IMG/VR virus record: IMGVR_UViG_3300032307_000797
DNA length: 64,000 nucleotides
Direction: 5' to 3' (one strand)
DNA from: a virus
Below, in pieces: positions 17,507 through 35,088 of the stretch (within the stretch, counting starts at the first letter, position 1; each line of letters starts with the position of its first letter). The notes beneath the pieces were generated by a model. That model was not told the origin of the DNA. It did no database searches and saw only the letters and a program-made list of their open reading frames with translations. Position numbers and translations under genes: made by a program.

Positions 17507-17704
17507 TTATAAATATCCAAGAAATGGTAAAATCCATGAAAAAACTACCGCTCTTATTAATAAATAACTAATACAGGAAATATTCAACTGCCACATAATC
17601 ATGGTGATTTCGTCAATAATACTTTCTATTGGGTGTTTCCTCACATAGAAGTATCTAAAAAGGACAACCCACATTAAAATGTTAAGAAATGCGGTTAATG
17701 TCAT
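17507..17704 (-). CDS. Small putative membrane protein with two hydrophobic segments
   Basis: ATGA overlap with the hub gene stop; hydrophobic stretches AFLNILMWVVLFRYF and ISCISYLLIRAVVFSWILPFLGYL. Confidence 0.45.
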   Translation of the reverse strand: MTLTAFLNILMWVVLFRYFYVRKHPIESIIDEITMIMWQLNISCISYLLIRAVVFSWILPFLGYL

Positions 17705-20700: not shown

Positions 20701-23484
20701 AGAAGACATCAAGATTGATTTACCATCAAATGTGATGGTATCCTCCAAATCTAAAAATGGTAGAGATGTCAATAACAAGTATGATGAACCGACATATTTT
20801 CCATAGATTGAATTATTGTGAAAATCACTATATAATTGTTTATGGAAATATGGGGTATTAAGAATACTGTTTAAGTTATTACCAACTTTAAAGTTTTGAG
20901 TGAACATATTTGTTTCATACCCTTGTTTTACCCATGATGTTGGTTTAACAGGTGAACACACAAACCCTTGATTTGGATTGATTGATAACACTCCATTGAA
21001 TTTGAAATTATCATCCGAAAAAGATGAAACATCCAAGTAATCCAAGTATAAATCAGAGTTAAATGGATATATGTTTTTTCTATATGGTTCAGGTACGAAC
21101 TTAACTAATTCCGCATTCAATTCGTCTTTTTTAAACGATTTGGATGTCCTTGATACATCAACGTACTTTTCTAACTTGAATGGGTATTCAATTATCTCTT
21201 TTAAATAAGGTACTGTAGGTAAGTTATCTCTGAAATATGGGAATCTTTCATATGGTGATGCACTTGGTATGTATCCGTCAAAAACGGTAGCAATCATTGG
21301 TTTACCATATGAATCCAATTGTGGAGTTCCGTCAGGTTTTGTAACCGGCGATGATGTTTTAAAACTAATTAAATCATCAACAGTTTTTAATTTTTTACAA
21401 AGACTTGTAAGGTCAATATCCTGATTAATTGATTCTGCAACATTTTCAAACTCCTCATCAATAAGATAATTTAAAAATGAATTACTATACGAATCGAATA
21501 GTGTTATGAACTTCGCTCTTTCATATAACTCATAAACAAATGATGAGAATATCTTATCTTGATACGGTATCTGTTCATTTATAACATCAATACCACTTAT
21601 ATCATCAATTTTACTCTTATCGAAATCAGTTTCAAAAATATATTCGATGTCACTTACTGTAGGTTCAGACGATACATTAGTTTCTTTTTTATTCGTCACA
21701 ATCTGAATATATTCTTCAACAAAGTCAACTTCGGGCCAAAGGTTCTTATCGTTTGATTTTAATTTATTAACTAAATCTATATCACCCGGATAAGCAATCA
21801 CATTTTGTTTACCTCCTGCGGTCGGTTTCTTAACTTCCGGCCACGGATAAATTGGTTGACCTTTTCCTTTTTGTTCGTCAGTTAAACCTGCAAGAAGTGA
21901 TGACCTCGCTTGTGCCGCATCAAATGCTTTATCGTGTACATCCTTCATTAATCTGATATACACCTCGGCATTCGCTAATAGAACCGCAAATATGTTTCTT
22001 ATTGTTGGTTCAAATCCAAAACCTTTAGAAGGGTCTTTGATGATTTCATTCATCTTCTTTTCCACCTCATCCTCAAGTTTCTTTCTTTGTTCCTCAAATG
22101 TTCTTCTAATTTCGTAGATGTCATTAATTAAGTTATCAATACCAACAAGAACTTTCTTCTCACCATTAATTTCGTAGTAATCTTTAACCGCTTTAACACT
22201 TTTTAAAGATATCTTTTTGAAATCGGCAGTGGTTTTGTTCATGAAACCATTTGTATATGTCAATGAGGTATTAATCTGACTTCTTCCATTTTCAATAAGT
22301 TTCTCAAGGGTACCGTTCTTATCTTTATTAATAATCTTATCTGTCGTGGTTTTATCATTACCTAACAAGTAATACCAATTTTCTGTACTTGTGGTATTAG
22401 TACCTGTTGTTTTTGTTTTAGTAATGTAATCTTTAGATATGTTTGTTTTTGCCCATGCTTTGATTGAATTCTCAAAGTTATCTAATGACTTCTCAATATC
22501 TTTTACACCTGAAAAGACCTCCATGGAGACCACACTATTAAAGATTTGTTTCTCTAATATTTTATCAAGTGATTCCGCTAAGTAACCTAACTCTTTTAAG
22601 GTTCTCACCGGCATGTCCTGAGGTATTAATCCTTTTTGTTTGTATTGAGAATAAATTGAACTTAGAATTGCATATCCTCTTGAACCTCGTGAAACATTTT
22701 TTTCATATCTACCGGTTGATTCGTTAAACTTTTTGTTTTCAACTTTTTCAGTTAAGAACATATATGGAGAATTGATAATCCCCGATAGTGGTACATCATT
22801 TAAATAAGCATATGTTGAACCAACAAATGTGGTACTAACTTCAAAATTTCCATTTGAATCATTAAATCTTGAACTGAATTTTGTCATATGTAAACGATAT
22901 CTAATCGCTTTACCATAATAACCTTTAACTGTTAAGTAAAATATTGGCCACGGAATATGAAAGAATGCTCGGTAAGGTGAGTTTTCAGATGCCTCAAATA
23001 AAACCTTACCTCGTATATCAACAAAATTAATCGAAACTTGGGGGGTAAAGTTTGCACCCTTAACCGTAATGTTAATAGAATCAATTCCAAAGTTTTGACC
23101 TGTGGGGTCAGTAAATGCAGTTGGTCCGAAAGTTAAGTCGTTACCATTTCTATAATTCGACTCGGCACCCTCAATTGGTTTGGGTACAAATGATTCTGTC
23201 CATGTTGAATCAAAATTACCGTCACCACTTTGATTTCTTAGAAAATTCAAATTTCCTTTTGCGATACTAACTAAGGTACTACCTTGTGATTCGGCAACAA
23301 GTCGACTTCTTGGAATTAAATCGGCTTCCAAGTTTGCATACATGACCAAATTTTCTTGTTTTAACCCTCTTGGTTGAATATTACCATCAGCATCTACGAC
23401 ACTATTTGGGTCAACATAAATAAGATTGTTTTGGTCAACTTTTACAAGTATGTTTTCACTATTTGATAAATCACTGTTCCCCAT
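17701..23484 (-). CDS. Large baseplate hub protein (gp27/late-control-D-like fold with long insertions, 1927 aa)
   Basis: C-terminal SYRCEVSCMGNVMIQP...GTYWITEVSHSI...TTFVGTR hub signature; follows the LysM/gpX gene in canonical myophage order. Confidence 0.7.
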   Translation of the reverse strand: MGNSDLSNSENILVKVDQNNLIYVDPNSVVDADGNIQPRGLKQENLVMYANLEADLIPRSRLVAESQGSTLVSIAKGNLNFLRNQSGDGNFDSTWTESFVPKPIEGAESNYRNGNDLTFGPTAFTDPTGQNFGIDSINITVKGANFTPQVSINFVDIRGKVLFEASENSPYRAFFHIPWPIFYLTVKGYYGKAIRYRLHMTKFSSRFNDSNGNFEVSTTFVGSTYAYLNDVPLSGIINSPYMFLTEKVENKKFNESTGRYEKNVSRGSRGYAILSSIYSQYKQKGLIPQDMPVRTLKELGYLAESLDKILEKQIFNSVVSMEVFSGVKDIEKSLDNFENSIKAWAKTNISKDYITKTKTTGTNTTSTENWYYLLGNDKTTTDKIINKDKNGTLEKLIENGRSQINTSLTYTNGFMNKTTADFKKISLKSVKAVKDYYEINGEKKVLVGIDNLINDIYEIRRTFEEQRKKLEDEVEKKMNEIIKDPSKGFGFEPTIRNIFAVLLANAEVYIRLMKDVHDKAFDAAQARSSLLAGLTDEQKGKGQPIYPWPEVKKPTAGGKQNVIAYPGDIDLVNKLKSNDKNLWPEVDFVEEYIQIVTNKKETNVSSEPTVSDIEYIFETDFDKSKIDDISGIDVINEQIPYQDKIFSSFVYELYERAKFITLFDSYSNSFLNYLIDEEFENVAESINQDIDLTSLCKKLKTVDDLISFKTSSPVTKPDGTPQLDSYGKPMIATVFDGYIPSASPYERFPYFRDNLPTVPYLKEIIEYPFKLEKYVDVSRTSKSFKKDELNAELVKFVPEPYRKNIYPFNSDLYLDYLDVSSFSDDNFKFNGVLSINPNQGFVCSPVKPTSWVKQGYETNMFTQNFKVGNNLNSILNTPYFHKQLYSDFHNNSIYGKYVGSSYLLLTSLPFLDLEDTITFDGKSILMSSLFREISSTHFLPYHLMLKWGAIYHRYKKQITTGDDILDGFLDATNITQPITGSTLFDGGFTGTTYTDFTIGSSTVTNTTDIGVAPFYQALYHQIVNGYNHYTVVSGNTSYSGETTSNKIVHKKEVKNNNYWSVFVDNSQYIPTDLYYTLLPSNGFNSSDLVSKNTETIDFARQYNFRSVWKDESITSEFSGRTFASHTEYPRNYVSGSTTDNVYSIDTNYRKVIDLIGTFSPKILETFEEMFLDFASEKGNAEIPYQTFKNVNYPKFQDLLKDISTVRKETSDSIGSDTLLNTLKTRQTTKLEVVTSNLLNSENLIKFTLANPKEIDPYTFYGMGLPSTVSLFTELPFSVSDVTSTNLDLIKLYIGEDIDGYYQNFFSINDIKLNEENIIRYRPMAQIYGGYRKAGGTNTKAAFREYLRTSIFQGNTNGIYAAGSDQRLKYFLEQLLRKISSETGVKQENESSQIKLYRGYNTDQTKLEVYNTLKSFNDKWTAGNSIGQRLLLEEFLFLDKANRDIGDKFYLNVDKILPLLNPKNAKQNLYGAISMLIQGTGLDMRALPAYVNFYGTNLRTKSKIAPSKTVAKNLFGTFLEVDYQESSPKIIIQLVGNSSKRPDMSNSKEYKFADDSFYIGSVNNNPLVITSLEGFSVNDLSKSNKVVAFEVSFGDQNQGIFKGVQLDQSTLKNTSESFVVLENLARSESGAGAYNVDTSLFDYYKQASYRCEVSCMGNVMIQPTMYFYLKNIPMFKGTYWITEVSHSIKSNVINTTFVGTRIPYTSLPDPKDSFLASYRVLFDKLTSKAKSILKQQESTKTDTQKPVVYNGVSYTTDMGSVTVSGEDITKSSPKVGITEFGVPYNGYNNEPSIQKIDNNGETWLRAIVVKMGGEKYPIESGTTFNVAEGIKWSDVSGSSMKFYNVRFQLSTANASKIRTATTQFKNPKNGKTLTLSPSYQLDSNLGPLSVQGPISVGPKVDGYGMGMSPALMSELGIHEGEVIYFKMS

Positions 23485-23797
23485 AATATAAGTTATACAA
23501 TTCTACGCCTCTTTTATAATCTTGTAAAGAGGTAGTCAAAGGAAATGGTATTCTTAATAAAGAATTATTTGGTATGGTAAATTCAAGACTTCCAACCAAA
23601 GGATTAGCCATTAGAATTAACCACCCATAAACAGGACTTCCATAATACTCTTGTGATAATTTATCCAATCTATCCTTACCTCTTTTATAAAACACATATT
23701 TGTCGGTTGTTTTGATTGGGATTTCAATACCCGGTACAATTCTAAAATCACCGTCTTCCACAAAAAATTGGTATCTGTCAAAATATTCTCTTGCCAT
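23471..23797 (-). CDS. LysM-like baseplate protein (P2 gpX / T4 gp53-like)
   Basis: KRGKDRLDKLSQEYYGSPVYGWLILMANP...LLRIP pattern. Confidence 0.8.
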   Translation of the reverse strand: MAREYFDRYQFFVEDGDFRIVPGIEIPIKTTDKYVFYKRGKDRLDKLSQEYYGSPVYGWLILMANPLVGSLEFTIPNNSLLRIPFPLTTSLQDYKRGVELYNLYYGEQ

Positions 23798-26700
23798 TAT
23801 TTCTTAGTTTTATAATAATTCAATTTATTACCAAGTGGTAGGTTATCCGAATGTACTTTTTTCGCTTCATCAATTACACTTGTATTTGTTTCGGCAGCTT
23901 CGGTTATTGTAAACGTAATATCCTTTTTGTTTTTTCTTTCCTTAAACTTACTAAACTTAAAGTTTTTCTCTTTAGGAATTTCAACAAATTTTTCAATCTG
24001 TTTTCTAATTTTATTTCTAACGTTTTCAGGGAAAACGATTGTATCTTTTTCGTATTCTTTAACGATTGCATCTACATTATCCGCCAACATTACTTTCATA
24101 ATGTTCTCAAAATCAACTGAAGAAATTACAGGATTTTGGAAGTTAATTGATGTCGTTAAATCGTCATACATTTTTGATGTATTCTTTTCAATATAATCAA
24201 TACATGAAGAATATGGGTCATACAATAAATCATAAGTGAATCCCGATAAAGTTGCCGATGTTGCAGTTTCTCCTGAAATCTTAGTATCCTTACCGAATTT
24301 TACCACAAAATTTACCTTATCCAAGGACGTAACCAAAGTGTTCCTTGTTTTCTCCAAATCTTCAAATGGATTTTTATCGGTCAATTGATTTATCTTATCC
24401 TCGACATATTTTTTCAATAATGGTTTTATCAACTCATTTGATTTTGTCAATTTCGGTGGAGTTAACTCTTTATCTAAATTCATCATCGTAGATAAATCTG
24501 TACTTTCGAGTTGAGTTACCAATCCACTTAATAAACCTCTTTTGAGAACCGATAATTCTTTCGCCTTCGGGTATTCTCCAAATATTGAAATTGTTTTACC
24601 CGGTGTTGTACTTGTTGTAGTATAAACATCGTATTGGTGTACACTTCTATATGTTGGGTCAAATAACATTTTACCTATCTCAGTACCGTATTTTGGTATG
24701 ATATCATTGTATGTTTTTTCATACGAATCAAAGTATGATTTAGTGTTAGTGAATACTTCATCAACCAATGGTGAATATTGTAATGCGGTTGACCCACTTA
24801 ACGTTCCAATGTAAACACCCTCACTTACTTTATTTGTGTTTTGTGATTCAGGTGCTTGTGGTGGTTTAGCAGATGCCGTTAATAGTTCCTCAAGGAATTT
24901 CTTTGTAAACTCCTCAGCTTTAACTCCACCAATTGTTTCATTAGTAGGTATTGACCTTTCATCATACATTTCGGTATTTGCGAAGAAGTTTGATGACAAT
25001 GCATTTTGTAATCTTTCCACCGGTTTTGATAAACCTTGACCACCAATAAATGCAATTTGACACGTCACATTCGCAATCATAGGTTGTACACCAATTCCTT
25101 CGGGGTTTAAATCCCATGGTGAATCATCATATGTAATGTTCACATCTCTAATAATAACTTTAGAGTGGTAGAAGTCACCAATTCTTAATACACATACAGG
25201 TGGAGGACCAAATGATGTGTTTCGTGCATTTAAATCCGAATCATCCGCAATTCCTTTAATTGGTATAGTATCACCGGGTCTTACACATTGTAACATGAAC
25301 GTTAAACGAGAGTTTAATCCTTCAGGTGTTGTAGAGTGGAAACCCGGATGGAAATACTTTAATTTTTCTTTTAATGATTTAAATGCCACAGGAGAATCTT
25401 CTTCAAGTTTCTTGAAGTAATAACACTCCGAAAGTGTTTTCATTATGATTCTCTTTAATGGGTCAATCGCCAATTTTTTAGTTGGTGATGGTACAATAAT
25501 ATTTTCACCCGGAACAATTTTTGTAACAGGTGTTGGGGTTGGGGTTGGTTTCTTTGGTTCAGGTATGTCAACATAATCAAACTTAACGGTCGATTGACGA
25601 CAGAAAAATGCGATTGGTGCATTGATTTTTAAACCTTTAATTGTAACAAATTCTTTACCCTTACAATAGTTATCTAAATTCGGATTTGTTCCTGTGAAAT
25701 TTTCACCATAATTTACCGTTTCGAATACGATTGAACCCGGATTATCTTTATATCCAAACTCACTTAATTTAAATTCTCTTTTGATTAATATTGGTTGACC
25801 CCTTTGAATTATAACTTTGTTATTTGAATTTTCTGGGTCAGTTTTTGTTTCAGAAGAGTTAATGGTTGTTACCCATCTTGTCTTTAAGTCAGGTTTACTA
25901 CCATTAGCAATTTTATCAAAGAAATCATTTATAATACTTGAGCTTCTTCTTAACGCTAATTTTTCATTATATAGTTCAGATGCCACTGATGAACACGACG
26001 ATTCGATACTCACATAAATCTTTTGTACGGTATTACCGCTAATTTTTTGTTTTAGTGTCGTAATCTCATTTGAATATTTTGTGTAATCGGTGTTTGCCGC
26101 CTCAAAATATCCCTCTAATTTGGTTTTTTGTTCTAAAATAGATGCATCACTAATCGTTGCACCACTATCACCAAAAATATAACTTTTTTCTTTTTTAATT
26201 TGTGCGGTTAATGTTTGACCCGTAATACTTCTTAAATCACTATCCAATCCATTAGCATGTGTTGTTTTCTTCGCTGGATAGAAACTATTAAATAAAGTTC
26301 CATATGGAGTACTAACATACAATGATTGTAAGTTCGGTCCCGGGTAATCGTTGTCATACTTTAAAACGAAAGGTCCTAATGTTTGTTTTTTACCACCGTT
26401 ACCTCCATTAGCACCACCACCATCACCACCGGTTTCAGGAATCTCTACCGGTTCAACAATTGTTTTATATGTTTTAATTACTTCAGGGTCCTTAGCTTTC
26501 TCGAGATACGATTGTATTAATTTAATATCATCTGAATCTAAGTATGTGTATCTTCTAATAAGTGAATAGAAATCAAGGTCTTGACAACCTGCAAAGAATG
26601 CGTTGATATAATTCTCAGCTTCTTCATCACTCATATTTCTAAAGTGTTCTCTAACCAATAGATTTAAAACACTTGGGTGGTCAACGACCACTTTAAATGA

Positions 26701-28581
26701 TAATGTTCCTGTTCTTGAAGTATCCTGATATGTGTAGATTGGTTCGGGTCTTCCTAAGAAAGTATTATCGGACCAACGAGCCGAGTTCTGTTCACTAATT
26801 TTTAAATCGTATGGTGGGAACCACATAACACGTCCACCATTATTACCTCTTTCACAATATGGTAAATCATTATATGTAAAACCTGGTGTATTAGATGTTT
26901 TCCAAGCCAAGTTCTCGATTGAGAACATGTATTTTTTAGCGTAGAATCCATCGCCCTTTTTGAATATGTTGGTTGAGAAGCCTTCGAATTCTCTATCACC
27001 ATTTGACATTGGTGCAATGTTCAAGTTCCATGGAGTTGACATTACACTATCATCGAATTTTCTGATATTACCAGTTCTTTTCATGGTATCAGAATAATTC
27101 ATATAACCTCTATCTTTCGTCCAAACTCTACAATACTCGACACCTGTTGTTTCATTTGTATATTGGTCAACGTATTGTATTGCAGAACCTCTCGATAACA
27201 TTTCGTTACCTTCTTTGAACACTCTACTTGTTTGGTCAATTACATTACCAACGTGAGTTCTTGCTGCTAAACCATCTTTTGGCATAGAATCAAGAATCTC
27301 TTGGGTTTTACCCATTATAGAATCTTCTCTAAATCCATATTTGGTTGACAATGAATCGTTAAGTTGTGTCGATTCTTGGGCCCACTCTTTATTATGTAAA
27401 CCTAATTCATTTCTTGAATTGGTACTTATCCATGTTAACTTACCTCCGATTTGTCCACCTTCGGTAATGTTTCTTCTTTTTTCAAATAACTCCGCAGAAA
27501 CGGGGTCGAACATCAAACTCAAATAGTAACTACTCTTAACAGTATTACCATTAAAATCTGACATTGTATATTTTACATCCTCACTTCTATCGTCACCAAT
27601 GTACGCTTCTCCTCTTGGCGCTTCTAAACCTAATATTGATTTTACACCTTGAGCAACACTATTAACAAAGTTGAAAAGTTTTGATGATTGTTGAGACCTT
27701 GCGGTTGTTGTGTAGTTTGGTGCGTATTTTGAATATGAAAGGTTATCGTACAGAAGTTGTTTTTGGCCTTCACCCATGTATTCAATCATTAAGTCCGATG
27801 GTTTTCTTGAAAGTTTTGGTCTTCTTTGAATACCAACTAATGAACCCAAGGCACCCGTAATATCTTGTAGAATTGCACCTGCTTCAGTTTTAGGTGTAGG
27901 TCGATTCTCAATTGGGTTTTGTGGATTACTTAAATAATCTCCCGGTATTTCACTAAATGGAAATTCAACACCCGCAACAGTTTGTAAGAAGTCAACCGCC
28001 TTTCCTGCCAATGTTTTGGCAACGGTAATCTTATAATTCTTTTCAATTAATGGTTCTCTACCTGTAACAATATTAACTGCGGTAGATAAGTTACCATTTA
28101 ATGCATCCGCCAATCTGATTCTACCTAATGTTGCCGCGGTTAAATTTTGTGTTATTCTAGCAAGAACAGGACCCTGTTTGTTTTCACGGATATTCTGTGC
28201 CGCAAATCTCATCAATCTCGAATCATTATCGAAATTGTCACCTGTCATAATACCAATTAACCCTGTAGAAACAGGTTGAAATGAATTGATATAACCAGAA
28301 TAAACAACACCGTTGTTTCCTATCTGTAAATTATAATTTGATAGAAATTCATATTCTCTAAATGAATCAGGTTGGAATAAGTTTAATCCGAAACTACCTC
28401 CGTATGAGGATGCCCATGTTGTTTTAACATCACCCGGGTCAACATTAGAAAAATTACTTAAATTTTGAACCGCATAGTTAGTACTTGTAAACGTTTGTGG
28501 ACCAAACGGTCTCTGTAGGGTCTTTGATATTAAAAAGTCCCTAAAAGTCGCGGTTGTATTAAAATCTAAATAAGTTGGCAT
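23797..28581 (-). CDS. Tail tube initiator-like baseplate protein (gp48/gp54-like) with inserted OmpA-like domain (1594 aa)
   Basis: WSDNTFLGRPEPIYTYQDTSRTGTLSF and PPVCVLRIGDFY...WDLNPEGIGVQPMIANV halves flank a segment containing YNEKLALRRSSSI. Confidence 0.65.
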   Translation of the reverse strand: MPTYLDFNTTATFRDFLISKTLQRPFGPQTFTSTNYAVQNLSNFSNVDPGDVKTTWASSYGGSFGLNLFQPDSFREYEFLSNYNLQIGNNGVVYSGYINSFQPVSTGLIGIMTGDNFDNDSRLMRFAAQNIRENKQGPVLARITQNLTAATLGRIRLADALNGNLSTAVNIVTGREPLIEKNYKITVAKTLAGKAVDFLQTVAGVEFPFSEIPGDYLSNPQNPIENRPTPKTEAGAILQDITGALGSLVGIQRRPKLSRKPSDLMIEYMGEGQKQLLYDNLSYSKYAPNYTTTARSQQSSKLFNFVNSVAQGVKSILGLEAPRGEAYIGDDRSEDVKYTMSDFNGNTVKSSYYLSLMFDPVSAELFEKRRNITEGGQIGGKLTWISTNSRNELGLHNKEWAQESTQLNDSLSTKYGFREDSIMGKTQEILDSMPKDGLAARTHVGNVIDQTSRVFKEGNEMLSRGSAIQYVDQYTNETTGVEYCRVWTKDRGYMNYSDTMKRTGNIRKFDDSVMSTPWNLNIAPMSNGDREFEGFSTNIFKKGDGFYAKKYMFSIENLAWKTSNTPGFTYNDLPYCERGNNGGRVMWFPPYDLKISEQNSARWSDNTFLGRPEPIYTYQDTSRTGTLSFKVVVDHPSVLNLLVREHFRNMSDEEAENYINAFFAGCQDLDFYSLIRRYTYLDSDDIKLIQSYLEKAKDPEVIKTYKTIVEPVEIPETGGDGGGANGGNGGKKQTLGPFVLKYDNDYPGPNLQSLYVSTPYGTLFNSFYPAKKTTHANGLDSDLRSITGQTLTAQIKKEKSYIFGDSGATISDASILEQKTKLEGYFEAANTDYTKYSNEITTLKQKISGNTVQKIYVSIESSCSSVASELYNEKLALRRSSSIINDFFDKIANGSKPDLKTRWVTTINSSETKTDPENSNNKVIIQRGQPILIKREFKLSEFGYKDNPGSIVFETVNYGENFTGTNPNLDNYCKGKEFVTIKGLKINAPIAFFCRQSTVKFDYVDIPEPKKPTPTPTPVTKIVPGENIIVPSPTKKLAIDPLKRIIMKTLSECYYFKKLEEDSPVAFKSLKEKLKYFHPGFHSTTPEGLNSRLTFMLQCVRPGDTIPIKGIADDSDLNARNTSFGPPPVCVLRIGDFYHSKVIIRDVNITYDDSPWDLNPEGIGVQPMIANVTCQIAFIGGQGLSKPVERLQNALSSNFFANTEMYDERSIPTNETIGGVKAEEFTKKFLEELLTASAKPPQAPESQNTNKVSEGVYIGTLSGSTALQYSPLVDEVFTNTKSYFDSYEKTYNDIIPKYGTEIGKMLFDPTYRSVHQYDVYTTTSTTPGKTISIFGEYPKAKELSVLKRGLLSGLVTQLESTDLSTMMNLDKELTPPKLTKSNELIKPLLKKYVEDKINQLTDKNPFEDLEKTRNTLVTSLDKVNFVVKFGKDTKISGETATSATLSGFTYDLLYDPYSSCIDYIEKNTSKMYDDLTTSINFQNPVISSVDFENIMKVMLADNVDAIVKEYEKDTIVFPENVRNKIRKQIEKFVEIPKEKNFKFSKFKERKNKKDITFTITEAAETNTSVIDEAKKVHSDNLPLGNKLNYYKTKK

Positions 28582-28624: not shown

Positions 28625-30466
28625 TTATGCGTAATTTCTTGGGTCTTGGTTTAAGAACCCATCTATTAAATCAGGACGTTGTTGTAGGTACCTCGCCATA
28701 TTGTCGGTTAACGGTTCTGATTTATATGTTAATTCTATTTGTTTTTTCTGTGGTTCGGAAGTTGTTGTGGTTGTGGTATTACCTTGTTTATCTTTTAATC
28801 CTGCCTTAACAGCTGCATCATCCATCATTCCTCTAATTGCTTCCCCTCCACCTTTTATTCCCGGTGCAGCCTCTTTTGATGCCTTTAATGTTTGTTCAGC
28901 AATTTTTGCCGGGTCAAAACCAATAGCATCAACAAGTTTTGCCCCTGTTTTACCAAATTCCATTCTTAGTAATGCGGCAACGAAATTCATATCTCTCGAT
29001 ATATTTTCAGTGTCTGTTGCTTGTTTTCTAACGATATCCTCTGTAGATAATTCTTTAAACTCATCTTGGAATTTCATTAATTGACTAACTTGAGCATCCG
29101 TTAATTCTTCAATCGCCACTTCATTTTTTCCAAAATACTCTCTCATTTTATCACTTTGAAGTTCAATGGTCATTCTACCACCTTTCATAGTTGAGATGTT
29201 AGTTAAAAATTCTTGTTGTTCGTCACTTAAACTCAGACCACTTGCCATTAATTCAGATGCGGCAGATGACCTTTCCGCCGCTGCAATTGCACCATTTGCC
29301 AACTCACTATAAGAAATACCGAGTTCAGCTGCCATTGCCTTTGCTTTTCTAAGATTCACACCTGTAATTTCAAATCTACCTTGTTCTTCATTGTATGTTG
29401 CTAATGAACCTGCAACACCGATTAATGCATCTTGTAAACCTTCAACATTGTTAGTTGCCATATACATTAATTTCAATGGGTCGTTGAAATCACCAATAGC
29501 ACCACCAATCGCTTGTAGATTAGCGGCCATATCAATTGCTTTATCAGGGTCCATTACATCATCCGCAACCTTAAATGCGGTTTCCATGCTCATTCTGAAT
29601 TCAATTGATTTTTGAACCATTTTTGTAAGTCCTTGAATACCATTTTGAAAACCGTATTCATTTATCTTACCAATATTAGTACCCAATTCTTTTGTTACTT
29701 TTTGTGCCTGTAACCCAAGAGCAATTGAACCTTTACCCGCCTTTTCAATTTGTTTTGATGCATCCGACGCACCAACACCAATTTTTTCAAATGCTGGATA
29801 CATTCTTACCAAATCACTTAATGTCCCAACATATGCAGATGCCGCGTATCCCGCATCTTTCCATGTTTCTCTATTTAAAGATAAAAATCTACCCGTTTCT
29901 TGCACCAAACCCGTCGCAGCATTTGATAATTCTTGAAAACCGATTCCAATTCTTAATAATTCGGGATTCGCTTGTGTTAATTCATCTCTAAATGCTTCAG
30001 AAAATTTACCCGTTAAACCAAGTTCTTTATTGACTTGTCCGAGTAATTCAGTTTGTTGTTTGTAGTATAATAAACCTTGGTCACCAATTGAACCCAATAC
30101 TGTTTTAAACATCTCAGTTGCACCTTTAAGGTTCCCCTGACCATCTATCATTCCCTTAATAACACCGGACATTTTAATATATTCCTCTGTCATTTGTGGA
30201 AGATAACCCGTTTGTTCTTGTGCACCGATAATTTCGGCACCAGCATTTAAAACACCTCCAGTTATTTTTTGAAATGTGTTGGCGGTTCCACCACCAGTTG
30301 TGTTTTTTCCCGCACTGGTATCATATGTTTTAAGTCGGTCGAATTCGGCCTTTGCTTGTAACCCATCAGAAGGATTTAAAGGATATGGTCTGTTGTTAGC
30401 TTTCGCCCACTCCTTTTCAAACTCGGTAACTCTTCCTTTCTTTGCTAAATCTAATAAATCCGCCAT
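28625..30466 (-). CDS. Tape measure protein (613 aa)
   Basis: Helical, Ala/Gly/Gln-rich; sits after tube and chaperone genes and before the tube initiator. Confidence 0.7.
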   Translation of the reverse strand: MADLLDLAKKGRVTEFEKEWAKANNRPYPLNPSDGLQAKAEFDRLKTYDTSAGKNTTGGGTANTFQKITGGVLNAGAEIIGAQEQTGYLPQMTEEYIKMSGVIKGMIDGQGNLKGATEMFKTVLGSIGDQGLLYYKQQTELLGQVNKELGLTGKFSEAFRDELTQANPELLRIGIGFQELSNAATGLVQETGRFLSLNRETWKDAGYAASAYVGTLSDLVRMYPAFEKIGVGASDASKQIEKAGKGSIALGLQAQKVTKELGTNIGKINEYGFQNGIQGLTKMVQKSIEFRMSMETAFKVADDVMDPDKAIDMAANLQAIGGAIGDFNDPLKLMYMATNNVEGLQDALIGVAGSLATYNEEQGRFEITGVNLRKAKAMAAELGISYSELANGAIAAAERSSAASELMASGLSLSDEQQEFLTNISTMKGGRMTIELQSDKMREYFGKNEVAIEELTDAQVSQLMKFQDEFKELSTEDIVRKQATDTENISRDMNFVAALLRMEFGKTGAKLVDAIGFDPAKIAEQTLKASKEAAPGIKGGGEAIRGMMDDAAVKAGLKDKQGNTTTTTTSEPQKKQIELTYKSEPLTDNMARYLQQRPDLIDGFLNQDPRNYA

Positions 30467-30477
30467 ACCTATAAATA

Positions 30478-30630
30478 CTAATTTGAACTATTTTCCAATT
30501 CAATTAGATAATTTATATAGTATCTCCTAATGTATATTGGCATAGATAAGATATCTCCATAAGAGAATCCTCTTTTAATTAGATACAATATTTCATCTAA
30601 CTGTCCTTTCTTATAATCCGTAGAAAGGGC
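30478..30630 (-). CDS. Frameshift-accessed 50-aa extension of the tail assembly chaperone (gpGT/gp51-like); missing from ORF track
   Basis: +1 frame opens right after a TAG at the slippery GAG TTT TTT CGC site and reads ALSTDYKKGQLDEILYLIKRGFSYGDILSMPIYIRRYYINYLIELENSSN*; no good independent start. Confidence 0.7.
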   Translation of the reverse strand, partial: ALSTDYKKGQLDEILYLIKRGFSYGDILSMPIYIRRYYINYLIELENSSN

Positions 30631-31360
30631 GAAAAAACTCTACCCCGAATCCGATATCTACTAGTACGGACTCTCCTGACGGGGATTTTACTTCTTTTTT
30701 AAGGTCTAAACCTGGAGTGTTATCTTTAACATATTTTCTAAAATCTTGACTGTCTTTAATCGGAAGTTTTTGGATAAAATTGTGAATATTCATCATATCT
30801 TTATTTCCTGCAACCGATTTAATCATCATTTCAAGTTGTTTGGTAACAATAGGTGGTACACCTTGTCCTTTCCAACTCTTTTCAATTTCATCAATATCGT
30901 TTTGTTGTTTCTTGTTTAAAAATTTAAAAGTGATGTCGACATTACTTTTTTCCATATGATAATGAAATTCACCATTCCCATCCGACTCTAATGTGAAATC
31001 TTTAAATTTCATTTCACTAATATCAATTGAGGCAGAAAAATCTTCATTAGTTTTTGGGTCCTTTAGATGAACTTTATATTCAGGACCAAATGCAGTATTT
31101 CTTAAAAATAATAATATTGCCTGTTTATCTTCATCAACCAAATCATCGATATTGAAATCTCTTTCTAAAACTTTTCTTTTTAAAAGTTCTTCAACGACAG
31201 TATTTGATGCAATCAAGTTCTGTGCGGAAAGAATGTTTTCATCCGCAGCAGTTAAATAAGCAACTCGTAATGATTTCTTTTTTGTTGGATAATGTATACC
31301 TCTTGAAGGTAATTCCACCACATCATACGCAATGGTGGGGTCGACTTTAAATTCTTCCAT
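30611..31360 (-). CDS. Tail assembly chaperone / T4 gp26-like baseplate hub assembly protein
   Basis: VELPSRGIHY, LTAADENIL, DKQAILLFLRNTAFGPEY, C-terminal FFRP; lies between tube and tape measure. Confidence 0.75.
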   Translation of the reverse strand: MEEFKVDPTIAYDVVELPSRGIHYPTKKKSLRVAYLTAADENILSAQNLIASNTVVEELLKRKVLERDFNIDDLVDEDKQAILLFLRNTAFGPEYKVHLKDPKTNEDFSASIDISEMKFKDFTLESDGNGEFHYHMEKSNVDITFKFLNKKQQNDIDEIEKSWKGQGVPPIVTKQLEMMIKSVAGNKDMMNIHNFIQKLPIKDSQDFRKYVKDNTPGLDLKKEVKSPSGESVLVDIGFGVEFFRPFYGL

Positions 31361-31458: not shown

Positions 31459-31947
31459 TTAGTATACTTGAATACATCTATCCATTCTCAATGAACAAGT
31501 GATAGTTGCGATATCATCTCTTGAATAATCAAGTTCATTGAAGTTTAAGTCGGTGATGAAAGTACCTTGAAGAATCCATTTTTCAACCACAACACCTGTT
31601 GGGTCTAACATTTCTAATTCAATGTCTTTCTTATAACCTGCAGCATAACCCATACGACCTGTTACCGATTCAGCGTGTAAACGGAACCACTCCATCAATG
31701 CTTGTGATGCCGAAGGACCAATTGGGTCTTTAAAGGTTACTCTTAATTCATTCCATTCAAATCTACCAGCAACGTAAGTTGAAGTATTGATAAATGGAAT
31801 CGCTACTGAGTTGATTTTAGCACTCGGTCTAGCCGCTGACGAAACGTACCATTCGTTGATTCCCAATGAAGAAGGGAAACGAAGGATAAATCTGTTTACT
31901 CTTTTCGGTTCGTAAGGAACCGGCATTTTCATTAATAAATCTGCCAT
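31459..31947 (-). CDS. Tail tube protein (T4 gp19-like)
   Basis: EPKRVNRF, YVAGRFEWNELRVTFKD, LEMLDPTGVVVEKWILQGTF...LDYS; immediately downstream of the sheath. Confidence 0.92.
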   Translation of the reverse strand: MADLLMKMPVPYEPKRVNRFILRFPSSLGINEWYVSSAARPSAKINSVAIPFINTSTYVAGRFEWNELRVTFKDPIGPSASQALMEWFRLHAESVTGRMGYAAGYKKDIELEMLDPTGVVVEKWILQGTFITDLNFNELDYSRDDIATITCSLRMDRCIQVY

Positions 31948-32241: not shown

Positions 32242-35088
32242 TTAGATATTATCAAATGATGCTCCTGTTGGTGTGATTATGAACTCAACATCAATGAATT
32301 CAAGTGAACGAGTTGGTTTGATATAAATCTTACCTCTAAGAGTGTTTGCATCAATGTCCTCTGGGTCATTTGATACAGTTACACGGAATTCGTATAAACC
32401 TCTTTCTCTCTTAATTGCTTCAAGAATTGGGTTAACCAATCTCAAGAACTCATTTCTTACTTGCTCATCGTTTTGTTCAAATAGTAATCTAATCGCAACT
32501 GCCGAAATTAACTTTCTTGCTCTTAACAATAATCTTCTTACGTTAATTCTATCCAACGCAGATTCTCTAACTTGAAGGGTTTTGTTACCCCAAATGATAG
32601 TACCAGTATCTGAGAAGGTTGCGATTGGGTTAATTCTATTTTTGTATAACTCATCTCTTTCGTCAAGTGTCAATTTCTTAGTTGCTTTGATAGCTTTTAC
32701 TAAACCTCTTGAGTAACCTGCTACCGCGAACCATGGGAATGATACGTTGTCGGTAAGAGCGATGTTTCTAACAACCTCACCTGTTGGTGGGATGTATAGT
32801 TGTGTTGCATTATCTTGGTCTCTAACCTGAATCCAAGGCCAGTAGGTTGCTGAATAGTTAGTATCAAGTGCAACTCCATCTAATGCATCTACTACTTCCT
32901 CAACTGTTGAGAAATTAGGTGGTGCGATGATGTAAAGTGAATCCGCTCTATCATTTTCCATAATGTCAATTGCTTGTGAAGTCAATGAACTATGGTCGTA
33001 GAAGTTAATACCCGGAGTTGCGAAGATGTTAATGTCAACTGCTTCAGGGTTTGCGAATGTATTGATACCTTGTAGGTAAGCGTAGTAGTCAGAGTTTCCG
33101 ACAGTTGTACTGAAAACACCACCATTTGAAGTGTTACCACTTACATAAGTTGGTTTTCCAAAGATGTACGGGTCTCCGAATGTTTTAACTTCTCTGTAGA
33201 TATCCCAACCGTCAAAACCACCACATACTGCGAATGTGAATTTACGGTAGTTAATACTTGTCATTACGTTATCAACACCCGTTTGACCTTCTAAGTCATA
33301 AGGAGTGGTTGTAAACGTTGTACCTGTGATTGTAGATGCATTAGTTGATAAGTGGAAACCGCTAGTTGAACCCGCTGCCGCCGAACCTTTGTATTTGAAA
33401 AGGTCCTTATCATAACCAACTTGTGAAGAAAGACCAAAACTGATTTTTCTTACTTTATCACCTGATGATAATTTTTGAGTACCATCACTTTCATATCCAA
33501 TTACATCACCAGCTTCGAAGAATTGAGTTTTGTACATAACAGAACCCAAAGTTGTACCTGAGAATGATGTGTTAGCCGTGAATCCTTTGAAACCCGCAGG
33601 GAACGCATCCACCGGATGGTTACTTGCCATATTCAACATGATGTATTTTGAACGTAATTCATATTCACCGTCAGATGTACCAACTTTTCTTGCCACATAA
33701 CCCGGTAGGTCAGGGTTCATAGAACATCTTGTGAATTTTTCAAGAACCACCATATTATCGTCAGAATCGTTAAAGTCACGAACAATCATATCAAATTCAC
33801 CTGTTTCCAAGTTGATGTTGATGATTGAAACTTTAACTTGTTCGTTTGCTGCGTTACCATCAGAGATGGTGATAACATCAAACAAGTCAGATACTTCACC
33901 ACCACGAACTTCAGAAACAACTGTTGGTGACATTGGGGTATCCCATTGTCCTACGAAATTATTTCCTTCTGATACGAATACCTCTGTTAAACTCAAACCT
34001 CTTACGAAACCTTGTTCGAAAGCTGATTTTAAATAGTTAGGGTATGATTCGTAAACATAAACCGGAACTTCTGATTTTGGTTTATCAAATACATCCGTAC
34101 CTAAAACTTTAGTTACATATTTTGATGAAGTTGTGTCCATTGAACAAGTGAAAGTTTTTACTCCACTTGTTGCCCCTGTTACTGTGATAGTAAATTCAGA
34201 GAATGGATTAAACGGTAAATCGTCACCTGTAACATTGAAATGGTTGTTTGTTGTAACTTCTAAATTCAATGTTTGACCTGAGTAAGAACCTCTCGGACGG
34301 AAAGCGACTACTACTTGTTCGTCATAATCACTCATTAATGTTGAATCATAAACGAACTGTGTAACGTTGAATGTACCTGTACTTCCTGATGTGTATTCAA
34401 ATAGGTATGAGTAAACTTCAGTACCTGCCGCGTTACAGAATTGGTTGTACCATTCCTTACCATTTGGGTTATCTGCGTCATTTAAACCGGTCAAAGGAGA
34501 AATTTCCTCCAAACTTGAGTTTAAACCTGAAGTTGCCGATGATGGTACCTCACCAATAACGAACCATTGTCCGTCATTAGATGCGGTGTTACCACTAAAT
34601 GTTGAGAATAAGTAATCTGCCATTGATTGACCATCGTATGCGGTTACTCCTGACATGTTTGAGTAGAACGTACTACCCGTAATACCGTTAAATGTTGATG
34701 GGTCACAAGTTCCTGAAGTGTCTCCACTCAATGAACCCAAAGTAACTCCACCAAGGGTTTTTATTGCGAATGTTCTCACGGGTTTGTAACCTGTAAGACC
34801 AAGGATTCTTGTTACGAAAAGTTGATTTGATTCCTCAAGGTATGCTTTAGCAACATAAGGTAACTCGAATTTTGGGTTACCGTTTCCATCTTTTACTGGT
34901 GATGAACCTCCGAAGTAAAGTTTGAATTCATCGTAATCGGTTACAAGGATGGGTTCGAATGCCGGACCTTTAAGGGTCTCTCCAACCAATCCAAGAGTTG
35001 TAACACCAACACTCTGTGCTACGAATGTTAAATCTTTTTCTGACGTGTAAACACCCGGAGATACAAATACTCTATTTGAATTTGCCAT
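32242..35088 (-). CDS. Contractile tail sheath protein (T4 gp18-like)
   Basis: N-terminal FVSPGVYTSEKD; C-terminal YWPW, PWFAVAGYSRG, RINPI, WGNKTL, DRINVRRL, FEQND, PTRSLEFI. Confidence 0.96.
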   Translation of the reverse strand: MANSNRVFVSPGVYTSEKDLTFVAQSVGVTTLGLVGETLKGPAFEPILVTDYDEFKLYFGGSSPVKDGNGNPKFELPYVAKAYLEESNQLFVTRILGLTGYKPVRTFAIKTLGGVTLGSLSGDTSGTCDPSTFNGITGSTFYSNMSGVTAYDGQSMADYLFSTFSGNTASNDGQWFVIGEVPSSATSGLNSSLEEISPLTGLNDADNPNGKEWYNQFCNAAGTEVYSYLFEYTSGSTGTFNVTQFVYDSTLMSDYDEQVVVAFRPRGSYSGQTLNLEVTTNNHFNVTGDDLPFNPFSEFTITVTGATSGVKTFTCSMDTTSSKYVTKVLGTDVFDKPKSEVPVYVYESYPNYLKSAFEQGFVRGLSLTEVFVSEGNNFVGQWDTPMSPTVVSEVRGGEVSDLFDVITISDGNAANEQVKVSIININLETGEFDMIVRDFNDSDDNMVVLEKFTRCSMNPDLPGYVARKVGTSDGEYELRSKYIMLNMASNHPVDAFPAGFKGFTANTSFSGTTLGSVMYKTQFFEAGDVIGYESDGTQKLSSGDKVRKISFGLSSQVGYDKDLFKYKGSAAAGSTSGFHLSTNASTITGTTFTTTPYDLEGQTGVDNVMTSINYRKFTFAVCGGFDGWDIYREVKTFGDPYIFGKPTYVSGNTSNGGVFSTTVGNSDYYAYLQGINTFANPEAVDINIFATPGINFYDHSSLTSQAIDIMENDRADSLYIIAPPNFSTVEEVVDALDGVALDTNYSATYWPWIQVRDQDNATQLYIPPTGEVVRNIALTDNVSFPWFAVAGYSRGLVKAIKATKKLTLDERDELYKNRINPIATFSDTGTIIWGNKTLQVRESALDRINVRRLLLRARKLISAVAIRLLFEQNDEQVRNEFLRLVNPILEAIKRERGLYEFRVTVSNDPEDIDANTLRGKIYIKPTRSLEFIDVEFIITPTGASFDNI

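What the first reader, a model, noticed from the sequence alone, without database searches (positions are those of the whole stretch)
30478..30640. Probable programmed +1 (or -2) frameshift in the tail assembly chaperone
Seen: the gene ends GTA GAG TTT TTT CGC CCT TTC TAC GGA TTA TAA. In the +1 frame a TAG lies immediately before AGT TTT TTC GCC, and the frame then stays open for 50 more codons, filling the gap to the tape measure gene. The peptide contains GFSYGDILSMPIYIRRYY, typical of gpGT/gp51-like C-termini. tRNA-Phe can re-pair from UUU to UUC while a rare CGC codon sits in the A site, giving a 293-aa fusion. Established: lambda G/GT-type frameshifts lie between tube and tape measure genes and are usually -1 (Mu uses -2). 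Inference: a +1 variant in a T4-like gp26 gene, which would link the gp26/gp51 pair to the G/GT paradigm.
Basis: partly seen in the sequence, partly recalled or inferred. Interest (0 to 1): 0.8.

Follow-up and report, generated by a model that had tools for sequence, protein, structure and literature searches.

The report
Forward frameshift in phage tail-chaperone gene
One tail-assembly gene of this uncultured T4-related phage almost certainly makes a short (249 aa) and a long (293 aa) protein by shifting one base forward at UUU-UUU-CGC, where phage T4 uses two genes (26 and 51); the chaperone idea is already published, so this is a well-supported further case.

Summary
On the minus strand the gp26-like gene (30611-31360, Pfam PF12322) ends GAG TTT TTT CGC CCT TTC TAC GGA TTA TAA. 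The +1 frame is open from just after a TAG (30640-30642) for 53 codons, to a stop 11 nt before the next gene.

The downstream frame is real coding sequence. Of 188 related loci, 178 carry the same conserved ~45-aa domain in the +1 frame. Among 148 distinct loci, 138 have a T6 or T7 run, and 84 have no possible start codon before the domain. Natural single-ORF long forms align with the predicted fusion without a gap at the junction. Where such a long gene exists, a separate short paralog sits beside it and has lost the T run, as in T4 (gp26 plus gp51).

CGC is very rare here (0.3 per 1000 codons). An unusual GGGG lies 5 nt upstream of the run.

Best reading: ribosomal +1 slip of tRNA-Phe. Transcriptional slippage is not excluded.

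Vladimirov, Gautam and Davidson (Virology 2022, not readable here) already identified these chaperone genes in T4-like phages. This scan also found the same site before on other DNA.

The parts
30611..31360 (-). Short form (0 frame, 249 aa): gp26-like tail/hub assembly chaperone, stop TAA at 30611-30613
   Evidence: PF12322 T4_baseplate at 30.7 bits against a cut-off of 24.5. phrog_150 'baseplate hub' positions 18-233 of 282, ending where T4 gp26 ends at 235. 2796 homologs, the best 120 almost all of 249 aa.
30629..30637 (-). Recoding site UUU UUU CGC: T run at 30632-30637, rare Arg codon CGC at 30629-30631
   Evidence: Consensus NNN TTT TTT (TGG|TAC|CGN) CCN across relatives. T7 in 110, T6 in 28 and T3-5 in 10 of 148 distinct loci. 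CGC is 0.3 per 1000 codons. The T run is lost in short paralogs that sit beside a separate long gene.
30481..30630 (-). Extension read in the +1 frame (50 codons, ALSTDYKKGQLDEILYLIKRGFSYGDILSMPIYIRRYYINYLIELENSSN), stop TAG at 30478-30480. With the 243 upstream residues it gives the 293-aa long, gp51-like form
   Evidence: Conserved domain. 1527 cluster representatives match its profile, including single-ORF proteins of 288-318 aa. The fusion P0124 extends the phrog_150 match to 277 of 282. It aligns without a junction gap with natural long forms. It is modelled as three helices with pLDDT around 90.
30640..30642 (-). TAG in the +1 frame just upstream of the T run. It sets the 5' limit of any shift site in this genome
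   Evidence: Relatives have TGG, TCG or TTG at this position.
30643..30646 (-). GGGG, 5 nt upstream of the first UUU: possible Shine-Dalgarno-like stimulator (inference)
   Evidence: The Gly codon here is GGG in 28 of 29 distinct proteins of the CGN clade and in 24 of 32 of the TAC clade. GGG is only 6.7% of Gly codons in the window. Neighbouring wobble positions vary freely.
31459..31947 (-). Tail tube gene (gp19-like), directly upstream
   Evidence: phrog_4542 tail tube at E = 1.9e-24. PF06841 scores 26.3 bits, just under its cut-off.
32242..35088 (-). Tail sheath gene
   Evidence: PF04984 and PF17482. phrog_23 at E = 7.8e-61.
28625..30466 (-). 613-aa gene directly downstream: tape-measure candidate by position only
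   Evidence: No family match. No similarity to T4 gp29 or to the annotated tape measure of Flavobacterium phage immuto. In immuto the gene at this position is annotated as tape measure.

Best explanation
The single gp26/gp51-family gene encodes two proteins with a common N-terminus.

Most ribosomes read UUU UUU CGC CCU in frame and finish after 249 residues. This short form is gp26-like (TAC-N).

A minority shift one base forward. With peptidyl-tRNA-Phe on the second UUU and the very rare CGC waiting in the A site, the tRNA re-pairs from UUU to UUC. GCC is then read, and translation continues for 50 codons. This gives a 293-residue long form (gp51-like, TAC-NC) with the junction VEFF-ALSTDYK.

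The two forms would act together as the tail/hub assembly chaperone next to the tape-measure-like gene, as lambda G and GT do. T4 reaches the same end with two paralogous genes, 26 and 51.

Shown: both frames are conserved coding sequence, the offset is +1, and the fused form exists naturally. Inferred: that the shift is made by the ribosome, the exact codon at which it shifts, its efficiency, and the chaperone role.
For: Frame and domain conservation
- 178 of 188 loci carry the extension domain in the +1 frame. These loci range from 29 to 100% protein identity to the window.
- The extension domain is conserved at the protein level.

No independent start
- 84 of 148 distinct loci have no ATG, GTG or TTG before the domain, and only 9 have an ATG.
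- In the window a TAG closes the +1 frame right before the T run.

Natural long forms
- Single-ORF long proteins of 288-318 aa exist.
- They align with the predicted fusion with no gap at the junction: SFF-GITPQYK against EFF-ALSTDYK. This fits +1 and leaves no room for the extra Phe that a -2 shift would add.
- Long genes of this kind in L108, L109 and L111 sit beside a separate short paralog. That paralog keeps the residues FFWP or FMWP but has lost both the T run (TTT TTC, TTT ATG, TTC TTC) and the extension.

Points favouring a ribosomal over a transcriptional shift
- Ten lineages have only T3-T5, for example GAC TTC TTT TGG in six distinct loci. They still keep a UUU_Y or CUU_U codon that can re-pair at +1.
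- CGC is 0.3 per 1000 codons.
- The GGG codon is nearly invariant, giving GGGG 5 nt upstream, against 6.7% general GGG use.

Link to T4 and to tail assembly chaperones
- T4 gp26 and gp51 both match PF12322 and phrog_150. gp26 ends at profile position 235 and gp51 at 280.
- The window's 0-frame product ends at 233, and the fusion reaches 277 with a score rising from 36.6 to 41.3 bits.
- Phages with the shift have one PF12322 gene, while T4 has two.
- The fusion folds with pLDDT 90.3 and pTM 0.85.
- The three best of 48,161 PDB representatives are HK97 tail assembly chaperone 2ob9 (Z 4.6), YqbN 3klu (Z 5.5) and 3fgx (Z 5.7). The last two are prophage or Bacillus proteins that I take, from memory, to be of the same fold class.
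Against: - No product, RNA or ribosome data exist for this phage.
- The first TTT codon is almost as invariant as the second, and most relatives have a full T7 run. A P-site-only slip does not need that, but polymerase slippage would.
- In most relatives the 0-frame A-site codon is UGG or UAC, which are not obviously rare.
- No conserved downstream RNA structure was found.
- The GGGG lies 5 nt from the first UUU and 8 nt from the second. From my recollection of prfB this is longer than its 3-nt optimum.
[quoted passage not shown] I could not read which mechanism they mean.
Confidence: 0.6

Rival explanations
1. Transcriptional slippage. RNA polymerase drops one U (or adds two) on the T6-T7 run. 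A subset of mRNAs then carries the two parts in one frame, and ribosomes translate them normally.
For: - 138 of 148 distinct loci have a homopolymeric T6 or T7 run, and both TTT codons are nearly invariant.
- The cyanophage S-PM2 has the same gene pair joined at a T6C run, but needs the -1 frame. The shared feature across clades is therefore a T run rather than one direction of shift.
- The title of Vladimirov et al. 2022 points to a non-translational mechanism.
Against: - T6 in the window clade and T3-T5 in ten lineages are, from general knowledge of bacterial RNA polymerase slippage, too short for appreciable slippage. Known programmed cases use about 9 or more.
- The S-PM2 site is a canonical ribosomal -1 heptamer, U UUU UUC, in the right phase. 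The sites here are in the right phase for a UUU_Y +1 slip.
- The rare CGC codon and the conserved upstream GGGG have no role in polymerase slippage.
- Slippage would also produce +1U transcripts. In the window those terminate after 4 codons.
Confidence: 0.27
2. A ribosomal -2 shift on the U run, with tRNA-Phe re-pairing two bases back. This gives VEFFF-ALSTDYK.
For: It reaches the same frame. A U6-U7 run allows re-pairing.
Against: - Natural in-frame long forms have two, not three, hydrophobic residues before the Gly or Ala.
- Lineages with TTC TTT TGG or TTT CTT TGG cannot re-pair at -2.
Confidence: 0.06
3. The downstream frame is a separate small gene with its own start, or is translated by termination-reinitiation.
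For: - Gene callers and GenBank records annotate such small ORFs. Examples are the 36-aa ORF in phage immuto, the 78-aa ORF in Mel-JY01, the 57-aa 'gp51' in S-PM2, and most of the 1527 profile hits.
- 55 of 148 loci have a GTG or TTG upstream.
Against: - 84 of 148 loci have no start codon at all. In the window the first candidate (TTG) lies 17 codons into the conserved domain.
- The offset is +1 in 178 loci, whereas independent genes would show varied offsets.
- Natural fusions exist.
- The T run is lost exactly where a separate long gene exists.
Confidence: 0.03
4. An assembly or sequencing indel in a homopolymer, or a decaying gene.
For: Homopolymers are error-prone. One related contig (L112) has an in-frame junction but a frame break elsewhere in the gene.
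Against: The same arrangement occurs in 148 distinct contexts from many samples and in four GenBank phage genomes. Both the short-form tail (FFxP) and the extension are under purifying selection.
Confidence: 0.01

Closest known systems
T4 gp26 (208 aa) and gp51 (249 aa), hub assembly chaperones (Leiman et al. 2010, PMC3004832, Table 2), identified as the tail assembly chaperones of T4-like phages by Vladimirov, Gautam and Davidson, Virology 2022, 566:9
   Same: - It belongs to the same family, PF12322 and phrog_150.
- The short form ends at the gp26 end, in a similar motif: EFF-ELL* in T4 and EFF-RPFYGL* here.
- The long form is colinear with the gp51 tail.
- The logic of a short and a long form is the same.
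   Different: T4 uses two separate, divergently transcribed paralogs and no recoding. Here one gene carries a +1 site. Direct profile comparison of the extension with T4 gp51 alone was not significant. The link runs through phrog_150, the natural long forms and the S-PM2 'gp51' ORF.
The gp26 plus small 'gp51' gene pair of T4-like cyanophages, for example S-PM2
   Same: One PF12322 gene is followed by an overlapping extension ORF with no start of its own. The two are joined at a T6 run just before a large tape-measure-like gene. The S-PM2 extension matches phrog_634 (gp51) at E = 5e-31 and matches the window-clade extension profile at 16 bits.
   Different: In S-PM2 the extension is in the -1 frame, and the site TCU UUU UUC is a canonical X XXY YYZ heptamer. 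In the window clade the run is in phase UUU UUU Y and the extension is in the +1 frame.
Lambda gpG/gpGT and the conserved frameshift of tail assembly chaperone genes (Levin et al. 1993; Xu, Hendrix and Duda 2004; cited from reference lists)
   Same: The gene lies between the tube gene and a tape-measure-position gene. Two products share an N-terminus, and the recoding site is near the 3' end. The fold search puts the HK97 chaperone among its top three hits.
   Different: The direction is +1, not -1. No sequence similarity to lambda G was tested. The protein is about twice as long as lambda-type chaperones.
+1 frameshifting at UUU-pyrimidine and 'hungry codon' sites, and the prfB (RF2) site CUU UGA C with its upstream Shine-Dalgarno-like element (recalled from the literature; general features described in PMC10885494)
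   Same: The P-site tRNA can re-pair one base forward (UUU to UUC). The A-site codon is slow to decode (CGC, 0.3 per 1000). A G-rich element lies upstream.
   Different: The A site holds a sense codon, not a stop. The spacing of the GGGG is 5-8 nt rather than 3. Most relatives have UGG or UAC in the A site.

Membership tests
T4 gp26/gp51 family (Pfam PF12322 T4_baseplate; phrog_150) | Profile match above the curated threshold over the whole domain | tested here: met
   30.7 bits against a cut-off of 24.5, residues 24-228 on profile positions 9-202 of 219. phrog_150 at E = 6.7e-9.
T4 gp26/gp51 family (Pfam PF12322; phrog_150) | The long form carries the gp51-type C-terminal tail (phrog_150 positions about 236-280) | tested here: met
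   The match of the +1 fusion runs on to 277 of 282 and gains 4.7 bits. Five of ten other fusions extend to 265 or beyond. Natural long forms reach 273-280. The gain is modest, and a direct comparison with T4 gp51 alone was not significant.
T4 gp26/gp51 family | Needed for hub or tail assembly but absent from the virion | not testable with these tools
   Needs genetics and virion proteomics.
Tail assembly chaperone of the lambda G/GT type | The gene lies between the tail tube gene and the tape measure gene | tested here: inconclusive
   The tube gene is directly upstream. The 613-aa downstream gene has no family match, so it is called tape measure by position and by analogy with phage immuto only.
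Tail assembly chaperone of the lambda G/GT type | Two products with a common N-terminus, made by recoding near the 3' end | tested here: met
   Met by comparative evidence only: +1 extension in 178 of 188 loci, no start codon in 84 of 148, and natural fusions. No protein data.
Tail assembly chaperone of the lambda G/GT type | A -1 slip on an X XXY YYZ heptamer | tested here: not met
   The extension is in the +1 frame. The -1 frame closes 4 codons after the 0-frame stop.
Tail assembly chaperone of the lambda G/GT type | Chaperone fold | tested here: inconclusive
   VIA-align ranks 1-3 are 3fgx (Z 5.7, 90 aligned residues), 3klu YqbN (Z 5.5, 84) and 2ob9 HK97 chaperone (Z 4.6, 93), all on model residues about 61-224. 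The Z values are below the level the tool calls safe. Foldseek found nothing.
Programmed +1 ribosomal frameshift (hungry-codon or prfB type) | A P-site codon that can re-pair at +1, followed by a poorly decoded A-site codon | tested here: met
   UUU_C, with CGC at 0.3 per 1000 codons.
Programmed +1 ribosomal frameshift (hungry-codon or prfB type) | An upstream Shine-Dalgarno-like stimulator at short spacing | tested here: inconclusive
   GGGG is conserved against codon bias. However, it lies 5 nt from the first UUU, and the host and its use of Shine-Dalgarno pairing are unknown.
Programmed transcriptional slippage | A long homopolymer (about 9 or more A or T in known bacterial cases, from memory) | tested here: not met
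   T6 here. Among relatives, T7 in 110, T6 in 28 and T3-5 in 10 of 148. This lowers the rival explanation but does not exclude it.

The most novel reading that the evidence does not exclude
The gp26/gp51 chaperone family is a natural series in which one function, making a short and a long form, is achieved in three interchangeable ways: a ribosomal -1 slip (U UUU UUC, cyanophages), a ribosomal +1 slip (UUU UUU Y, with a hungry codon and a prfB-like GGGG element, this clade), and gene duplication (T4 and the L108, L109 and L111 lineages). The +1 version would then be a widespread sense-codon +1 frameshift in bacterial viruses, seen here in at least 148 distinct lineages.
Probability: 0.45. Interest if true: 0.6.

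Novelty: new member of a known kind. Interest (0 to 1): 0.45.

Why it matters
Programmed +1 frameshifts at sense codons are rare in bacteria and their viruses. Here one appears to be fixed in a large, environmentally abundant group of T4-related phages. The extension profile has 1527 cluster representatives.

The data include a built-in natural control. The slippery run disappears exactly where a duplicate long gene takes over.

Practically, hundreds of small 'hypothetical' or 'truncated gp51' ORFs in phage genomes and metagenomes should be re-annotated as the C-terminal part of a recoded chaperone.

The site is short, has no downstream structure, and would be easy to test in reporters. The general idea that T4-type phages have G/GT-like chaperones (gp26 and gp51) is already published, which limits the novelty. 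What may be new is the +1 geometry and its likely signals.

Tried and rejected
Searches that found nothing
- tblastn of the 53-aa extension against GenBank phages gave no match.
- The C-terminal 140 residues of the fusion, scanned alone against PHROGs and Pfam, gave no match.
- hhalign and HMM comparison of the extension with the single T4 gp51 sequence was not significant, although it aligned YSLNSISKMIPAERGFVL to the conserved motif. BLASTP of the fusion against gp51 was not significant either.
- Foldseek against the PDB found nothing below E = 0.08.
- The window encodes no tRNA, so there is no sign of a phage-encoded shifty tRNA within these 64 kb.
- Viral contigs related to the natural fusion P0218 were not found.
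- The 613-aa downstream protein showed no similarity to T4 gp29 or to the immuto tape measure.

Downstream RNA structure
- The window region folds no better than shuffled sequence (z = -1.28).
- A neat 7-bp hairpin, CCUUUCU/AGAAAGG, 2 nt after the site is not kept in relatives and shows no compensating changes. It was rejected as a stimulator.

Literature
- Three full-text searches found no paper on a gp26/gp51 frameshift.
- The relevant paper, Vladimirov et al. 2022, was found only through a reference list and could not be read by DOI or PubMed id.

No RNA evidence could be obtained.

Full report
**Observation**

The genes of this region lie on the minus strand. The order is:
- sheath (32242-35088)
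- gp19-like tube (31459-31947)
- a 249-aa gene (30611-31360)
- a 144-nt apparent gap
- a 613-aa gene (28625-30466)
- a 1594-aa gene

The 249-aa gene ends GTA GAG TTT TTT CGC CCT TTC TAC GGA TTA TAA. In the +1 frame a TAG (30640-30642) directly precedes AGT TTT TTC GCC. That frame then runs 53 codons to a TAG at 30478-30480, 11 nt before the next ATG. Reading the site as +1 gives a 293-aa protein, P0124, with the junction VEFF-ALSTDYK.

**What the gene is**

The 249-aa protein matches Pfam PF12322 (T4_baseplate) above its threshold, and it matches phrog_150 'baseplate hub' on positions 18-233 of 282.

T4 gp26 (208 aa) and gp51 (249 aa) both match PF12322 and phrog_150. gp26 ends at profile position 235 and gp51 runs to 280. 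Leiman et al. 2010 (PMC3004832, Table 2) list both as hub assembly chaperones.

The window is part of a large uncultured phage. It encodes ribonucleotide reductase, a DnaB-like helicase, a DNA polymerase and a gp6-like wedge protein. No host genome is held for it.

**The downstream frame is coding and always +1**

- Four distant GenBank phages have the same gene order and a +1 ORF overlapping the 3' end of the gene. They are Flavobacterium phage immuto, Microcystis phage Mel-JY01, an uncultured 484-kb phage and a 'Streptococcus' phage from pond water, at 25-33% protein identity. The peptide of the +1 ORF is conserved.
- Three scans of IMG/VR added about 180 loci.
- I classified the loci with two profiles, one for the N domain and one for the extension. 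178 of 188 loci have the extension in the +1 frame.
- The extension is a conserved domain of about 45 aa with consensus GLxPxYKxxLHxEIFxLxYxGnGFTxxdVYxMPxxLRRFYxxKL. Many relatives add a Lys/Arg-rich tail.
- Among 148 distinct loci, 84 have no ATG, GTG or TTG before the conserved domain, and only 9 have an ATG. Independent initiation is therefore not the general route.

**The fused protein exists in nature**

A profile of the extension found 1527 cluster representatives among 1.84 billion proteins. Most are orphan ORFs of 50-130 aa. About eleven are single-ORF proteins of 288-318 aa with the extension at the C-terminus. The predicted window fusion aligns with ten of them over its whole length, with no gap at the junction.

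In the viral contigs that carry such long genes (L108, L109, L111), a separate short paralog lies immediately upstream. It keeps the residues FFWP or FMWP at its end. It has lost both the extension and the T run, which reads TTT TTC TGG, TTT ATG TGG or TTC TTC TGG.

This is the T4 arrangement, and it works as a natural control. The T run is kept only where one gene has to give both products. In line with this, phages with the shift have one PF12322 gene and T4 has two.

**Link to gp51**

- With the +1 fusion, the phrog_150 match of the window protein runs on from position 233 to 277 and rises from 36.6 to 41.3 bits.
- Five of ten other fusions behave the same way.
- Natural long forms reach positions 273-280.
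- In cyanophage S-PM2 the gene after gp26 is annotated as a 57-aa 'gp51'. Its stop-to-stop frame matches phrog_634 (the gp51 family) at E = 5e-31, and it matches the window-clade extension profile at 16 bits.
- Direct comparison with the single T4 gp51 sequence was not significant. The link is therefore transitive.

**The site**

The consensus is NNN TTT TTT (TGG|TAC|CGN) CCN.
- Of 148 distinct loci, 110 have T7 and 28 have T6. The window type is TTT TTT CGN.
- Ten have only T3-T5, including a lineage with six distinct loci reading GAC TTC TTT TGG.
- The site pair is TTT TTT in 83 of 88 distinct proteins, although TTT makes up 74% of Phe codons elsewhere in these genes.
- Combining the window's +1 TAG with the early 0-frame stop of Mel-JY01 confines the shift to six codons around the run.

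**Mechanism**

I favour a ribosomal +1 slip of peptidyl-tRNA-Phe from UUU to UUC or UUU, at about 0.6. The reasons are these:
- Every variant, including those with short runs, keeps a codon that can re-pair one base forward.
- In the window clade the waiting codon is CGC, at 0.3 per 1000 codons.
- A Gly codon three codons upstream is GGG in 28 of 29 distinct proteins. GGG is only 6.7% of Gly codons in the window, and the neighbouring wobble positions vary. This gives GGGG 5 nt before the first UUU, which recalls the G-rich Shine-Dalgarno-like stimulator of prfB. That comparison rests on my memory of the literature and is an inference.
- The natural long forms have two, not three, hydrophobic residues at the junction, which argues against -2.
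- No conserved downstream structure exists.

Transcriptional slippage remains a serious rival, at about 0.27. Both TTT codons are nearly invariant. Most relatives have a true T7 homopolymer. The S-PM2 clade uses a T run for the opposite frame, although in the canonical -1 phase U UUU UUC.

**Structure**

The fusion was modelled with an alignment of natural long forms, close homologs and extension ORFs. The model has mean pLDDT 90.3 and pTM 0.85, and the extension forms three helices.

Foldseek found nothing. An exhaustive VIA-align search ranked 3fgx, YqbN (3klu) and the HK97 tail assembly chaperone (2ob9) first to third of 48,161 chains, on residues about 61-224. The Z values are only 4.6-5.7. 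This is suggestive and does not prove a shared fold.

**Prior knowledge**

Full-text searches for a gp26/gp51 frameshift found nothing. [quoted passage not shown] I could not read it.

Two citing papers summarise it:
- Some T4-like phages carry one short gene and one long fusion gene instead of a frameshift (PMC10885494).
- Poly-T sequences are slippery signals in the TAC-N genes of T4-like phages (PMC12846349).

The conceptual link to G/GT is therefore published. Whether the +1 phase is covered there is unknown to me.

Earlier agents of this scan reported the same +1 site and the -1 version on other DNA. I re-tested the main claims myself, and I did not use their notes as evidence.

**Verdict**

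That the long form is made by some kind of recoding I put at about 0.9. That the ribosome makes the +1 slip I put at about 0.6. I class this as a new member of a known kind. It could count as a new variant if the 2022 paper covers only -1 sites.

Noticed in passing
L001:4854-4964 (MW353176.1), L002:4776-5012 (PP395634.1), L190:1691-1864 (S-PM2 NC_006820): GenBank annotates fragments of the extension as separate small genes: a 36-aa hypothetical protein, a 78-aa hypothetical protein, and a 57-aa 'gp51 baseplate hub assembly catalyst'. They are better read as the C-terminal part of a recoded long form.
   Followed up: partly
L190:1660-1690 (S-PM2): In cyanophage S-PM2 the same gene pair is joined in the -1 frame at TCT TTT TTC GCA, a canonical U UUU UUC heptamer. 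The family therefore uses both directions of shift.
   Followed up: partly
L112:3886-4950 (IMGVR_UViG_3300045125_000089): This relative has an in-frame junction (GAC TTC TTT GGC, one T fewer than its +1 siblings) but a frame break in the middle of the N domain, near 4353-4408. It could be an assembly error, a decaying gene or a compensating pair of indels.
   Followed up: no
L151 (IMGVR_UViG_3300010883_007592), near 3940-3964: The T7 run is interrupted (TTTTTATGG) where all siblings have TTTTTTTGG. A slip at the first UUU would still reach the +1 frame.
   Followed up: no
L037 and L072: Two odd members. L037 has TTT TTT CGC GCT, with Ala replacing the otherwise invariant Pro. L072 is a 303-aa form with no recognisable T run at its end, yet it has a +1 ORF of 58 codons.
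   Followed up: no
window 17701-23484 and 23797-28581, minus strand: Two giant ORFs (1927 and 1594 aa) downstream of the 613-aa gene have no PHROG match and only a sub-threshold Pfam match. Which of the three large genes is the tape measure is open.
   Followed up: partly
window 30586-30628, minus strand: A perfect 7-bp hairpin, CCUUUCU(N10)AGAAAGG, starts 2 nt after the slip site. It is present in the closest relatives, but it is lost without compensation in others.
   Followed up: yes
L047:1501-2431: Only the +1 fusion of this relative, not its 0-frame product, matches phrog_23772 'baseplate protein' across the junction (residues 169-299, E = 7e-6). Some PHROG families therefore already contain fused long forms.
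   Followed up: no
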